Shown here: one piece after another, positions 15,801 to 27,800 of the stretch | Layout: every line of letters begins with the position of its first letter | Position numbering within the stretch: the first letter of the stretch is position 1 | Source of the DNA: Tubulanus polymorphus | Taxonomy: Eukaryota > Animalia > Nemertea | Assembly: GCF_964204645.1 (NCBI RefSeq) | Contig: NC_134026.1 | Location: 21,486,150-21,550,149, forward strand | Length of the DNA: 64,000 bases | Reading direction: 5' to 3' | Made by a program: the position numbers and the translations under genes | The notes under the pieces: generated by a model | Database searches by the model: none | Told to the model about the DNA's origin: nothing | The model's input: the letters and a program-made list of their open reading frames with translations, nothing else

Positions 15801-18800
15801 GCAAGGTTATCGCTTTAAAAGGTAAGCATATATACGGAGAATGCTGCTAGCCACTTGTGTTTTCGTAGCAAGGCTTACATGGGCTTGGCACGGACTGGTC
15901 TTGAATCTGATCTATGACTTCGACCAGGACCAGTGATTCCCACTGAAATGAATAAATCTCAATTTGATCGGAAATATTCTATATTATAAGAATATTTTTT
16001 TTTGATATTTTTGCTTCTGTTTAGTCTAAAAAATTGAATGCTTAAATTCTGAGATAATGATTTTCCAGCGAAATATGGTGCGATGTTTGAAATAGATTTG
16101 ATTTCAGATAGATAGATAGATTTTTGTTGTCCACGAAAAATATTTGCATTGACAAAATTAGTTTCAATAGTTAGAGCACGATATTGCTGTACTGGTTTGT
16201 TGGTTTGTCTTTTCAGTTTTTGTTCTCTTACTATCTTTTCAGCGAGTGATGTGTTGTGTTTTCTTCTTTTTTTTCAGCTGGCAAAACTTTGCAAATATTC
16301 AACATCGAAATGAAAAGCAAAATGAAGGCGCACACGATGACCGACGACGTGACGTTTTGGAAATGGATTTCGGTGAACACGGTCGCGCTCGTAACCGATA
16401 ACGCCGTTTACCATTGGAGCATGGAAGGTAGCGTATATCTCTTCTTATTTTTAAAACATTTTAACCCGAGTTATCCGTTCTTTAACTGCGTCATCAGAGC
16501 CGTCGGAAGGAATTTTTCAGTGGCGAGGCTTATGTCTGAAGGGTGGTCTGGGGGCCCTCCCCTAGAAAAATTTTGAAAATTCAATCGCCGGAGATGCATT
16601 TTGGGGCCATTTCACGGTCTCATTCACAGAAGCATGAGAAGTCGTGAGCCAACCACCTAGTACAGAGAACGACAAGCTGCTATGCGGTACAGCGTGCTTT
16701 TGAAAAAAATTTTATTATGCAAAAAAGTGGAGCGGCTTTGGCCGCCCCTGTTCCGACGGCCCTGGTCATTTATCATTGTTGAAACGCTACTCTATCATTT
16801 TGTATCATTGGTCCATTTATAACAGTCGGCTTGTTTTCCGACTTCAAATGCTTTTTCTCGAGCACAAAAAAGATATATCGATAAAATCATTATTAGGGAT
16901 TGCCGCTTTTCAGCCCGCATAACAGTTATTTTTTTGTATTTGAATTTTTCGCATAAATGAGATCTTATGTGCAACGCTGCGCCATTTTTGTGGGATTTCG
17001 GATAAATTCGAAACGCTGTCTAACATTGCTTTGTTTTATTCATGACTACAGATAAAGGTATGAAGTTCGCATCTCTATTTTCGTTCTACTGGACATGGGA
17101 AAGGCTATTAGTATTCTATAACACTTTTTGAAAAATCTTTGGACAATTGAAGTAACCGGTAATTCGTCTCTATGATAACAGTGCTGTCCAAATTTGGGTA
17201 TTTTAAGCATTCAAAAATGTCTTAACACATAAATTCACATTCAGAGGTTGAGATCTTTCATAAGCCTATATCGAATCCAAAAATTGTATAACATTGATAT
17301 TGCAAACAGCTTTTAAGATATGCCACCCTCAATGATTCATTTACCTCCCCTGGAAAAATGATTTGGACAGCAGTGTTGATTAGTTTGAATCGGGTATTTT
17401 TGAATTGTTGCGCGATTCTGAGTGGTTGTTTCGATTGTTAGATGTCTCTAAATGAAAATTCGAACGAATATAACTCCATCCGTTGATTCGTGAAGACCAA
17501 TCTTCATGAATTACTGTACACAGTTGGTTTTATAGTCAGTAACTAATTCGAAGGTCGAAATGAACATTGATTTTCGATGGAAATTGTGTTTTGGTGGTGG
17601 CTGCCTTTCTCCTGATACTACCAGTCAGCGGGAGCTGGTTTGTCTGTAGCATGACCTGAATTAACTGTGCATATTATAATCAATAATGAAACCGGTGGCG
17701 ATATAGAGTTATCGGTTTGTTTTCAGTTGGTAACGGTAGTTTTTAAGTTGATATCGAATACGATAACAGGTCACCGAATAATGTTATGATATTATTTGTG
17801 ACAGGTCTTGATCGGTGCCGGGCTTTTGATAATAAAGATCCATTTAGTATTTTTGCTAAAAAATCCGTTTTTTTTTAAACCATCATGAACGATGTCAAAT
17901 GTACATTTCAAATGACGGTCGGTGATTGGTGAATTAAACCCGTTCTATGAATTCCCTGGCATCATTGCATGCGTTCATTCGATTGAGGTCTGTTATGATA
18001 TATACTCCCGTTAGTTTATCGTGCGGTTGGCACCTCTGGTAATATTTTTCTAATGTATGACGATAATAATATAACGGCAATTGGCTGAAAATGTATTATA
18101 TAATGATACGATATCATGTGAGAAGCATGCTGCGTTGGCAAACAACCAAAGCTTGTGCGTCTGATTTTTGCAGGTGTACGAGCTCTGAAACATCAATCTT
18201 CTATCGTGTTCTACCACTTCTCGTTTTGAAAATCCCTCGAAAAAAAATGACCTTAATGCGCCTTCAAATTTGATGACACAGTAGATAGTGTCAAATGTAT
18301 TCTAGGCATAGCATTTTGGTATTTTTTTGTCACTTGCCCACCAAGAAGTACAAACCTCGGCTCTCAATCTAGAGTAATAAATTGCTCAGAGACGTTTTTT
18401 CACGTTCCAATTCTATAAAAATATTTCACCTAGTAATCATGACATATCCCTTCATCTCATTCTTTTATCATCCACTTCGCTCTATTTTATTTCCACATAC
18501 AGCGACACTGATCTCTCCTTTATCTTATCGATCGAGTTAATGAAATGAATCCATTATTTCTTGAAAATGTTTGTAGGCGATTCTCAGCCGTTGAAGGTAT
18601 TCGATCGGCACTCGAGTCTGTCCGGATGTCAAATCATCAACTATCGTACGGACCCCAGCCAACAGTGGCTTCTACTGATCGGCATTTCTGCTCAGGTAAG
18701 TAAAGATCTACGATGACCCGATCCACGAAAAAAAAAAATAATTCAAAAATAAACTAGAAATCCGCTATTCATTCGCTGAAAATTAAACCAGAATTTACGA

Positions 18801-24800: not shown

Positions 24801-27800
24801 GTAATCAGATGTTCACTCATTACGACCGCGCTCACATCGCTGCGCTGTGCGAGAAATCGGGATTGTTGCAGCGCGCTCTCGAGCACTACACCGATCTTTA
24901 CGACATCAAGCGAGCCGTCGTTCACACACACCTCCTCAACCCGGAGGTAATTATCGAATATTCACTTGCATTACGACGTTCATGTCTTTGAGAAAAAATA
25001 AAGAGTTTAATGCATCTTCGGCGCAATACGTTCCCGGAACCTCTGATGTGACTTTTGGGTTAGGGTTTGATGACATCGCATTGTTGTCTTCGAACAGCGC
25101 TCCGGTATTTTAACTAACGTCTTTATACGAAAGCTGGAGTTGAATACAGTGTGGAGTGAAATCTTTTGGCCAGTATCTCGATACCTTCCCAATTTTTCCA
25201 GTTCAAATACTGTTGATCAATTGGCAGCAGTGCTGCTGCATTAAGAATATAAAGCCTAACATGGTCGCGTAATTTCACAGCTTATTTTGATTAATTCCGC
25301 GAGGTCTTCGAAAATGAGACGGTCGTGTTGTAAATCTTGCTTTGTGTCTACGGCATCTACTGTCTATTAACGACTGATTCTTTTTCTGTTAAATATCTAA
25401 TCTAATCGTCCCTGGTGCAGTTGTTTGTGCTGCGAGTCTCTCTTCTATACGAATATTTGTTCGTCGTTTTAGATGGGAGCTACGGCTGAGGTAATATCAT
25501 TTAACAGCGGAAAGTGGTTCATTCATTCTTCCTCAGCTCAACATGAAAATCATTTCATCATAAGCATGTTTGTTCTGGATATATTCATATTGTATATTAT
25601 TATTGATTTTTATTATTATTTTATTATTATTATCATTATTATGGTTACTTGAAGATTTTTGTAGGATTTCACTACTAATTAGTTACTAATATGTCGTAGA
25701 TGAATTTTTTGGAAGAAAAAAAAGCGCTTACATAATGCTAGAAGCCTGACAAATTGAATCTTGCAAATAAGAAATTGTTGTAGCCTCTATATTTGGTTCA
25801 TAAGTGTGATTTACTATTCATAATCATAGTTTAAGTAAAGCATTCTATATCCCAGATATCTATGTATAGGTAGCAGGCATATTTAGTACTTCAGTTCGAT
25901 GGAAAACTGCTTCATTCTTACATTATTCCTATATTTTTGGTGGATTTCATTTTTTCCATTCAATTGAAACAAAAAAAAAATTTGATTTCGAAATACTTTT
26001 TTGGATGAATTTCTTCGCGCACATTCGCCGCCACCAACACCCCCTATCACCAAAGTTCTGCTGTGTATTGAATTGCAGTTGCGACGTTTTTCGGATTTGT
26101 TCGTTGATGAAACGTTTTTACTTCTCGGAGTTCGTTACTAATTAGTGCATATGTCTCGGTGTTCTAGCTGTTTTTAGCCTTTCACTCCTTCCATTTTGAG
26201 TGACAGCGTTATATCTTTTAATTCTCTTAACTAATTTATTAATTAATTAAATCACGTGCCGTTCGGTCTCTTGACTCGTCGAGTTTTTGTCTCCTGGCAT
26301 TCATGCTTGTTGCTCGTATTATGCAATGGCCTGTGCTGGCCTCCGACGAAGATGTTCGGCGTTTCGCCTGGCTTTGAATTATACCCGACTGAAAGAAACT
26401 CGCTGTTTTTCACTAGTTGCTTTTATCCTTGAAAAAAATACATAAACGAAAAAGAATGTTGAATAAAGAATATGACTAGTTTTCTGGGCTGGGTTTCATA
26501 GATGTGGAAGAAAAAGAGTCCCTGGGAATATTTTGAAATTTGTCAGTTATGACCATGGTTTCTCATTGTTACTATGGTGGTTGTTACCCAGATTTAGGAG
26601 TTATCCCTAGGGATAACTTTGTTACACAGTCTATGAACCCGGGCCCTGGTTATTTGTGAAAATATTCAATTGCTAAAAACTTTTGCTAAATGGACCGATT
26701 AGAGATATGTTCTGCGTTTATTTTTCAGTGGTTGGTGAATTACTTCGGTTCGTTGTCCGTTGAAGATTCGCTGGAATGTCTGAAAGCGATGTTACAAGCG
26801 AACATCCGTCAGAATCTTCAAGTCTGCGTACAAATCGCTACCAAATACCACGAGCAACTCGGAACCACGGCGTTGACGGAGATCTTCGAATCGTTCAAGA
26901 GTTACGAAGGTAAATAATGTTTGTTTTATATCTCTTATATGTTGAAGGCTGCTTAATGCTGATTATTCGAGAGAGAGATAAAAGAGATTTGCAAATTCAA
27001 AATATTTTGTTTCGTAATAACGCCAAGAATAGACCGATCTGGATGAGTCAGTTATCTTTAGATTTTACCTTCTCTGAAGTGGGAAAAATCATTCATGACG
27101 TTATCTATTGTTGATTGTTCGTAGTTTAGCGCATTAGACGACAATCGACGCTTGCTACGAATAGAATTCTCAATTGTTCAATTGACTTTTCCCCTGTTAT
27201 AATACATTTCATCATCTTGTCTTCCATTGTAGGATTGTTCTATTTCCTCGGCTCGATCGTGAATTTCAGTCAAGACTCCGAGGTGCACTTCAAGTACATC
27301 CAGGCCGCGTGCAAAACCGGACAAATCAAAGAAGTCGAACGAATTTGCCGTGAAAGCAACTGCTACGACCCGCAACGAGTCAAGAATTTCTTAAAGGTTT
27401 GAAAAAAAAGCGATGGCTACCTTCGAGAATAAAACCAGAGCTGCCAAATGTGTCTGATATTCAGTATTTCGTTACTATTCCATCTCTAGAAATATTCATT
27501 TGATTTGCTTGATGCGAACAGAAATGAGAAAGATGTTACTGAGGGTCTTACACTCTTGATTACTGGTCAATTTGAACACTTTCTTTCATATTTCAATGAA
27601 ATGTTCATAAAAAAGATTCAATTTGTTACTGATAGCGCTTTTCAGAGCTTGGCAGCTCTGCAAAATGATAATGACTTCTTTTAACTGATGTGATTCAAAT
27701 CATTGGTGTATGCAGCCAGATCTTTTCTGGAAGGAACTAGAAATTTATTACTGTTGTTCAGAAATGTGCTACATTTTTAAGGTTGGATCAATTTATTTTA

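What the first reader, a model, noticed from the sequence alone, without database searches (positions are those of the whole stretch)
16069..25490. Possible hidden microexon programme in clathrin heavy chain
Seen: most CLTC introns here are ~75-500 bp. Three long internal introns (intron 3, 2149 bp; intron 4, 2705 bp; intron 11, 1782 bp) are not explained by a large repeat array, and each contains a tiny AG..GT-bounded segment that is a multiple of 3, matches the intron phase and is stop-free (6, 33 and 18 nt). A weaker 9-nt candidate lies in intron 2. Known: Srrm3/4 (eMIC)-dependent neural microexons have UGC motifs near the acceptor and are enriched in vesicle-trafficking genes; the alternative CLTC exon I know from vertebrates is near the C-terminus, not at these sites. 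Inference: combinatorial tuning of terminal-domain and distal-leg loops of a nearly invariant coat protein.
Basis: partly seen in the sequence, partly recalled or inferred. Interest (0 to 1): 0.8.

Follow-up and report, generated by a model that had tools for sequence, protein, structure and literature searches.

The report
Optional loop microexons in ribbon-worm clathrin
Two tiny optional exons (33 and 18 bases) in a ribbon worm's clathrin gene match database isoform models exactly; the larger one adds a predicted loop beside an adaptor-binding pocket where five animal phyla, but no sampled vertebrate, carry optional inserts, so it likely tunes which partners clathrin grips in some tissues.

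Summary
Partly confirmed. The gene is the 29-exon clathrin heavy chain of the nemertean Tubulanus polymorphus. Splicing in the 33-nt (19161-19193) and 18-nt (25473-25490) segments reproduces RefSeq isoforms X1-X3 letter for letter, and skipping both gives X4. They are alternative microexons, already in database models, not hidden. The 6-nt candidate is in no model but has the best microexon-type acceptor (about 50%). The 9-nt candidate is probably chance. No RNA reads were obtained, so neural or Srrm dependence and true combination on one molecule are untested. New point: the intron-4 junction (Q173/Q174, predicted hairpin tip next to W-box residue I170) carries inserts in 86 of 455 homologues, with plus/minus isoform pairs in five phyla, and in 0 of 84 named vertebrates. 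The 18-nt exon was seen only in Tubulanus and lies in the ankle region. This scan earlier noted the octopus intron-3 and shark intron-2 exons on other DNA.

The parts
12874..35467 (+). Clathrin heavy chain gene, start to stop codon, 29 constitutive exons, 1679 aa
   Evidence: translation identical to RefSeq XP_074642668.1 (P0122, Tubulanus polymorphus X4)
19161..19193 (+). 33-nt cassette microexon in intron 4, phase 0, [11 protein letters not shown] between Q173 and Q174; weak AAG acceptor, TGC at -9, strong GTAAGT donor
   Evidence: inclusion reproduces XP_074642666.1 (X2) and XP_074642665.1 (X1) exactly; motifs; predicted loop with pLDDT <50 at 175-184
25473..25490 (+). 18-nt cassette microexon in intron 11, phase 0, MGATAE after E649; CTAAY at -71 and -76, TGC at -42 and -45, CU-rich tract
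   Evidence: inclusion reproduces XP_074642667.1 (X3) and X1 exactly; motifs; seen in 2 of 361 homologues, both Tubulanus
17052..17057 (+). 6-nt candidate microexon in intron 3, phase 1 (would turn E-G-D into E-D-K-G-D); unproven, about 50%
   Evidence: rank 2 of 434; 88-nt AG-free zone, longer than at any of 28 constitutive acceptors (maximum 78), CTAAC at -32, TGC at -25; in no RefSeq isoform; cephalopods carry a 6-aa optional insert at this junction
16069..16077 (+). 9-nt candidate in intron 2; probably chance (about 12%)
   Evidence: donor score 2.4, AG-free zone 13 nt, fails the composite filter; in no RefSeq isoform; the junction itself is a hotspot in other animals
16495..16764 (.). High-copy 270-bp element with 14-nt terminal inverted repeats in intron 3 (MITE-like); accounts for part of the intron's length
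   Evidence: arms 16495-16508 and 16751-16764; depth up to about 13,000 with loose ends at 16495

Best explanation
The 33-nt and 18-nt segments reproduce database isoform models exactly and are therefore very likely true optional exons, adding a predicted flexible 11-residue loop at a hairpin tip beside the W-box pocket and 6 residues to a predicted ankle loop, which would tune adaptor or coat contacts in the cells, likely neurons, that include them. Shown: gene structure, frame, exact match to four isoform models, and optional inserts at the same intron-4 junction in other phyla. Predicted: both inserts leave the fold intact and sit in loops. Inferred: skipping is the default because the acceptors are weak; an Srrm234/eMIC-type factor acting at the upstream UGC promotes inclusion (about 50% for the 33-nt exon, about 35% for the 18-nt exon); the 11-residue loop partly shields or remodels the W-box face (about 45%). 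The junction works as a recurrent site for optional inserts whose sequence turns over, as K83/A84 does at the clathrin-box groove.
For: Exact isoform matches. The two peptides were seen in no other species among 512 proteins, so models copied from homologues are unlikely; that RefSeq alternative models need transcript support is my own knowledge, and I could not see the evidence record. Acceptor scores are -2.1 and 0.7 against a constitutive median of 6.7, and donor scores 9.8 and 4.9. This weak-acceptor pattern, with UGC and CUAAY, is the eMIC-type architecture described in PMC8797185. Both exons and the 6-nt candidate are among 13 segments that pass an AG-free-zone plus donor filter (shuffle mean 7.0; 7 of 200 shuffles reach 13). 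Inserts at aa 173 occur in 86 of 455 proteins and at aa 83 in 90 of 446, against 0-3 at 23 of the other 26 junctions. Plus/minus pairs at aa 173 occur in Lineus, scallops, oysters, mussels, abalone, octopus, cuttlefish, sea spider, sea urchins and amphioxus. The model puts the insert between strands 164-174 and 186-196, and the propeller matches solved terminal domains at 0.7-1.3 A. I170 is a W-box residue and N175 is in a proposed site 5 (PMC8805674).
Against: No read-level support was obtained. The sequence criterion is chance-level. Adding the TGC and CUAAY terms to the filter gave no clear excess (6 vs 3.1, 19 of 200; 2 vs 0.6, 28 of 200), and thresholds were set after seeing the candidates. 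The 18-nt exon has no TGC within 25 nt, and the 33-nt exon has no CTAAY branch point. The Tubulanus peptide does not resemble the Lineus or bivalve inserts. Many inserts elsewhere start with Val and may be alternative donors rather than cassettes; only some bivalve, gastropod and unnamed ones are cassette-only by codon logic. Homologues are not independent, and inserts may collect here only because loops tolerate them. No distance to the W-box was measured; adjacency is inferred from strand order. A single terminal-domain site can sustain endocytosis (PMC5182127), so the effect may be small.
Confidence: 0.7

Rival explanations
1. The exons are real but near-neutral: long introns sample weak splice sites, and frame-preserving inserts survive only at tolerant surface loops, without a regulated role.
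For: Insert sequences and lengths (2-18 aa) turn over between lineages. The 18-nt exon is seen only in Tubulanus (2 of 361). 434 raw candidates exist.
Against: Inserts concentrate at two junctions next to adaptor sites, while 23 of the other 26 junctions have 0-3. The bivalve insert is kept across scallops, oysters and mussels, with tandem second copies. The equivalent vertebrate K83/A84 exon is tissue-specific.
Confidence: 0.17
2. The exons are real and regulated, but by a non-eMIC programme (for example muscle or secretory cells through Rbfox, Mbnl or CELF-type factors), like vertebrate CLTC exons 31 and 33. This rival concerns the regulator only and overlaps the best explanation.
For: The vertebrate CLTC microexons 31 and 33 are muscle-regulated (PMC13676984 passages). 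UGC evidence is weak. The mouse 3-nt Cltc exon is classed LowPSI, not as a regulated target, in the table of PMC8797185.
Against: Weak acceptor with TGC at -9 and a strong donor in the 33-nt exon; eMIC programmes are described across bilaterians.
Confidence: 0.3
3. The RefSeq isoforms are annotation artefacts and all four segments are chance AG..GT matches.
For: Shuffles give equally scoring segments often. No junction read was seen by me.
Against: One sits at a junction with optional inserts in four other phyla.
Confidence: 0.04

Closest known systems
Vertebrate CLTC 3-nt retina microexon HsaEX0015816 (Ciampi et al. 2022, PMC9303857; bioRxiv 10.1101/2021.09.08.459463; passages and Fig. S3 legend seen)
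   Same: Optional microexon in the terminal-domain propeller, at a hairpin next to an adaptor-binding site; same junction (K83/A84) as this window's intron 2.
   Different: The supported terminal-domain exon here is at Q173/Q174 (blade 4, W-box side) and 11 residues long; 0 of 84 named vertebrates have an insert there. This species has no supported exon at K83/A84.
CLTC muscle microexons 31 and 33 (PMC13676984; listing and passages seen)
   Same: Short optional exons that diversify the clathrin heavy chain by tissue.
   Different: They lie near the C-terminus (aa 1609 inserts were found only in vertebrates, 27 of 68 named). The sites here are in the propeller and the ankle.
eMIC/Srrm234 neural microexon programme and recurrent exon hotspots such as spg, syd, EndoB and unc-13 (PMC8797185, passages, section 13 and one supplement table; bioRxiv 10.64898/2026.09.05.749416, passages)
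   Same: Short frame-preserving exons with weak acceptors in trafficking genes; same-position exons that recur across phyla with unrelated sequence.
   Different: Clathrin is not named in the main text of either paper (0 occurrences of 'clathrin'). Neural specificity and eMIC dependence are untested here.
Cephalopod 18-nt optional insert at the intron-3 junction
   Same: Same junction (aa 133) as the 6-nt candidate.
   Different: Six residues, unrelated sequence; the 6-nt Tubulanus candidate is in no model.

Membership tests
Alternative cassette microexon (33 and 18 nt) | 3-51 nt, AG/GT-bounded, intron on both sides, frame kept | tested here: met
   flanking sub-introns 465/2207 and 526/1238 bp
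Alternative cassette microexon (33 and 18 nt) | Both inclusion and skipping forms on record | tested here: met
   RefSeq X1-X4 identical to in-silico forms; these are annotation models, not reads
Alternative cassette microexon (33 and 18 nt) | Junction reads | not tested
Alternative cassette microexon (6 and 9 nt) | Inclusion form on record | tested here: not met
   0 of 4 Tubulanus isoforms; very short or rare exons can be missed, although RefSeq does hold one-residue inserts in fish
eMIC/Srrm3-4-dependent neural microexon | UGC between branch point and AG; weak acceptor; long AG-free zone; CUAAY | tested here: inconclusive
   33 nt: TGC at -9, weak acceptor, no CTAAY; 18 nt: TGC at -42, CTAAY at -71; 6 nt: all features; 9 nt: short AG-free zone, no close TGC; excess over shuffles modest
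eMIC/Srrm3-4-dependent neural microexon | Neural-restricted inclusion | not testable with these tools
   no tissue RNA available
eMIC/Srrm3-4-dependent neural microexon | Dependence on the eMIC domain; eMIC isoform present in this species | not testable with these tools
   no whole genome held; needs a minigene or knock-down
Clathrin heavy chain (CHC17/Chc orthologue) | Propeller, linker and clathrin repeats | tested here: met
   Pfam PF01394, PF09268, PF13838, PF00637; PDB matches

The most novel reading that the evidence does not exclude
The clathrin propeller has two equivalent hairpin tips, K83/A84 in blade 2 (clathrin box) and Q173/Q174 in blade 4 (W-box face), that bilaterians repeatedly fit with neuron-switched optional inserts. 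The blade-4 switch is ancient or has arisen many times, was lost in vertebrates, and lets invertebrate neurons select among clathrin's redundant adaptor sites. This ribbon worm uses it together with a private ankle exon and a third, unannotated 6-nt exon.
Probability: 0.3. Interest if true: 0.7.

Novelty: new variant of a known kind. Interest (0 to 1): 0.45.

Why it matters
Why clathrin keeps several redundant adaptor sites is an open question. Natural optional inserts beside the W-box face in five phyla give ready-made variants for asking whether cells tune one site at a time, and several hosts (sea urchin, amphioxus, octopus, oyster) have tissue RNA and experimental access. For microexon evolution it adds a same-position hotspot with unrelated sequences in a nearly invariant protein. 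For this worm alone the gain is small, since both supported exons are already in database models.

Tried and rejected
No whole genome is held, so an eMIC gene and genome-wide motif rates could not be checked. Run search with 33300-37000: 7 runs, no RNA holder listed. I laid 4 of the 7 runs (X2-X5) on 15760-18900. There was no splice joint, even across the constitutive introns 2 and 3, and records cross exon-intron borders, so these runs say nothing for or against the 6-nt and 9-nt candidates. Searches for a Tubulanus protein with a +2 or +3 insert found none. The raw AG-3n-GT criterion was rejected as evidence. Other high-scoring segments (34918-34929, 17727-17735, 21749-21772, 19661-19675, 13022-13054) have no supporting isoform. 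One insert at aa 173 (P0454, a cnidarian model) looks like intron read-through and was not counted as a phylum, but it is inside the 86; so are the two Tubulanus isoforms. Amphioxus has an aa-83 insert in all 15 listed proteins, so it may be constitutive there. No complex was predicted: no suitable W-box partner was on hand. Literature searches listed no paper whose title or abstract start describes a Q173/Q174 or E649 exon. Most hits were seen as listings only; the 2019 Nat Ecol Evol eMIC paper, VastDB and bioRxiv supplements were not seen and could list it. (species name) was seen as a listing only and not used.
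Full report
Gene and organism. The + strand carries a 29-exon clathrin heavy chain gene from 12874 to 35467, all introns GT-AG, with one 1679-aa frame. That product is identical to RefSeq XP_074642668.1, Tubulanus polymorphus isoform X4; the next closest protein is Lineus longissimus at 93%. 22 of 28 introns are 75-510 bp; intron 1 (2698) and the array-filled intron 18 (1166) are also long.

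The observation against chance. All four segments are present, in phase and stop-free: 16069-16077 (9 nt), 17052-17057 (6 nt), 19161-19193 (33 nt) and 25473-25490 (18 nt). But 434 such segments of 3-51 nt lie in the gene's 17,554 intron bases, and dinucleotide shuffles give similar numbers (55 vs 64, 68 vs 86, 45 vs 49 and 10 vs 20 for introns 3, 4, 11 and 2). With weight matrices from the gene's own 28 introns the named segments rank 2 (6 nt), 7 (33 nt), 11 (9 nt) and 18 (18 nt). Shuffles match their summed score in 28, 141, 55 and 175 of 200, and match both sites at once in 1, 7, 17 and 80 of 200. The stated criterion therefore does not separate them from chance.

Independent evidence. The protein cluster of the Lineus hit holds four Tubulanus isoforms of 1679, 1685, 1690 and 1696 aa. 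Splicing in the 18-nt segment, the 33-nt segment or both gives X3, X2 and X1 letter for letter. The other 12 combinations, which hold the 6-nt or 9-nt segment, match no stored protein. Each peptide is encoded once in the window. These are annotation models. That such models need transcript support is my own knowledge; the peptides were seen in no other species, so copying from homologues is unlikely. I put the two exons at about 95% real. The four models do not prove free combination, because the sites are 476 codons apart and phasing is unknown. I obtained no read evidence of my own; the attempts are listed under Tried and rejected.

Splice architecture. PMC8797185 (passages) lists weak acceptors, long AG-free zones, UGC near the acceptor, CU-rich tracts and CUAAY branch points for eMIC exons. 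bioRxiv 2024.09.17.613571 (passages) finds a UGC in 74-79% of SRRM3/4 targets and not strictly required. The 33-nt exon has a weak AAG acceptor (score -2.1 against a median 6.7), TGC at -9 and a strong donor. The 18-nt exon has a weak acceptor, CTAAY at -71 and -76, TGC at -42 and -45 and four CU-rich tetramers. The 6-nt candidate has an 88-nt AG-free zone, longer than at any constitutive acceptor, CTAAC at -32, TGC at -25 and a good donor. The 9-nt candidate has a 13-nt zone and a poor donor. A filter on AG-free zone and donor keeps 13 segments, including the 6-, 33- and 18-nt ones but not the 9-nt one (shuffle mean 7.0; 7 of 200 reach 13). Adding TGC or CUAAY terms gives no clear excess (19 and 28 of 200; with the stricter donor cut 11, 6 and 25 of 200), and the thresholds were post hoc. 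TGC within 25 nt precedes 162 of 713 intronic AGs and 3 of 28 constitutive acceptors. So eMIC control is plausible, not shown. I put the 6-nt exon at about 50% and the 9-nt one at about 12%.

Other animals. I aligned all 512 other fetched proteins to X4 and counted clean inserts of 1-20 aa: 235 of 264 lie within 2 residues of an intron junction of this gene. My queries favoured the N-terminal part, and the proteins are not independent. By junction: aa 83, 90 of 446; aa 133, 7 of 451 (5 in cephalopod clusters); aa 173, 86 of 455; aa 649, 2 of 361 (both Tubulanus); aa 1021, 11 of 353 (Lineus, amphioxus); aa 1609, 27 of 286 (all vertebrate); the other 22 junctions 0-3. At aa 173, forms with and without the insert exist in the same named species in nemerteans, bivalves, gastropods, cephalopods, a sea spider, sea urchins and amphioxus, that is five phyla, and in 0 of 84 hand-listed named vertebrate proteins. 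Scallops, oysters and one amphioxus show two stacked inserts. Against a single ancestral exon: lengths run from 2 to 18 aa, sequences differ, and the sampled clams, Lingula, hemichordates and starfish show none there. Many inserts begin with Val, which fits an alternative donor; only the bivalve, one gastropod and some unnamed inserts must be cassettes by codon logic. Ancestry versus convergence is open.

Structure. An AlphaFold2 model of X1 residues 1-800 (58-sequence alignment, mean pLDDT 87.6) keeps the propeller, which matches solved terminal domains at 0.7-1.3 A. The 11-residue insert is a low-confidence loop (175-184) between strands 164-174 and 186-196. The 6-residue insert lengthens the loop before helix 662-672; it ends in T-A-E, which mirrors the N-P-E that precedes the same helix when skipped. 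Numbering equals mammalian numbering up to the first insert. W-box residues are F27, Q152, I154 and I170, N175 belongs to a proposed fifth site, and C682 and G710 mark an ankle adaptor site (PMC8805674 passages; PMC5182127 passages; bioRxiv 2021.05.22.445240 passages). By strand order, K83/A84 and Q173/Q174 are the same second-to-third-strand hairpin in blades 2 and 4. No distances were measured, so nearness to the pocket is inferred.

Mechanism. Default skipping from weak acceptors; inclusion in some cells, most likely neurons through an Srrm234/eMIC-type factor (about 50% for the 33-nt exon); a flexible loop that shields or remodels the W-box face and shifts adaptor choice (about 45%); a smaller, lineage-specific change in the ankle. 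Rivals are tolerated near-neutral inserts (0.17), a non-neural regulator (0.3, overlapping with the main reading) and annotation artefact (0.04).

Comparison with what is known. A 3-nt retina microexon between K83 and A84 of CLTC is published. The mouse counterpart is listed, with two upstream donors 12 nt apart, in a supplement of PMC8797185. Muscle microexons 31 and 33 are published. Recurrent same-position microexons are described for other genes. My searches listed nothing on the Q173/Q174 or E649 sites, but closed-access papers, VastDB and bioRxiv supplements were not seen. Earlier notes of this scan cover the octopus intron-3 exon and the shark 3-nt exon; they agree, which came first, and are not counted as support.

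Verdict. Two real, already modelled microexons, one open candidate and one weak one. The interesting part is the invertebrate hotspot beside the W-box. New variant of a known kind; interest 0.45.

Noticed in passing
window 16495-16764: High-copy MITE-like element with 14-nt terminal inverted repeats, flanked by GTCAT on both sides, in intron 3.
   Followed up: partly
window 21172-21317; similar text near 21750-22040, 24080-24140, 26590-26650, 32030-32170: A second small inverted-repeat element recurs in several introns (for the first; the others seen by eye).
   Followed up: no
window 22323-22459: A 34-bp unit repeated 4 times starts at the exon-6 donor and copies the GGTAAAG donor three more times; the frame reaches a stop before the in-frame copy.
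   Followed up: no
window 29315-30293: 252-bp tandem array in intron 18; its copies carry TTTCGCAG|GTTATC, an acceptor directly followed by GT.
   Followed up: no
window 19040-19058 and 20454-20472: 19-nt, 95% complementary inverted repeat that brackets the 33-nt exon; it could loop the exon out, or be an element remnant.
   Followed up: no
CLTC aa 1021 (intron 19 junction), proteins P0047, P0123, P0320, P0387-P0396: 9-residue optional inserts at the same junction in Lineus and amphioxus; Tubulanus intron 19 is only 160 bp and has none on record.
   Followed up: partly
proteins P0130, P0136, P0018, P0085, P0392, P0393: Two stacked inserts at aa 173 in scallops, oysters and amphioxus, suggesting tandem duplication of microexons.
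   Followed up: partly
window 39853-43049 +: Downstream gene with Somatomedin B and spondin-type TSP1 domains.
   Followed up: partly
window 57843-62255 +: GC-rich block with abutting open frames of 218, 366 and 884 codons and no Pfam match; the last two are in one frame, separated by one stop.
   Followed up: partly
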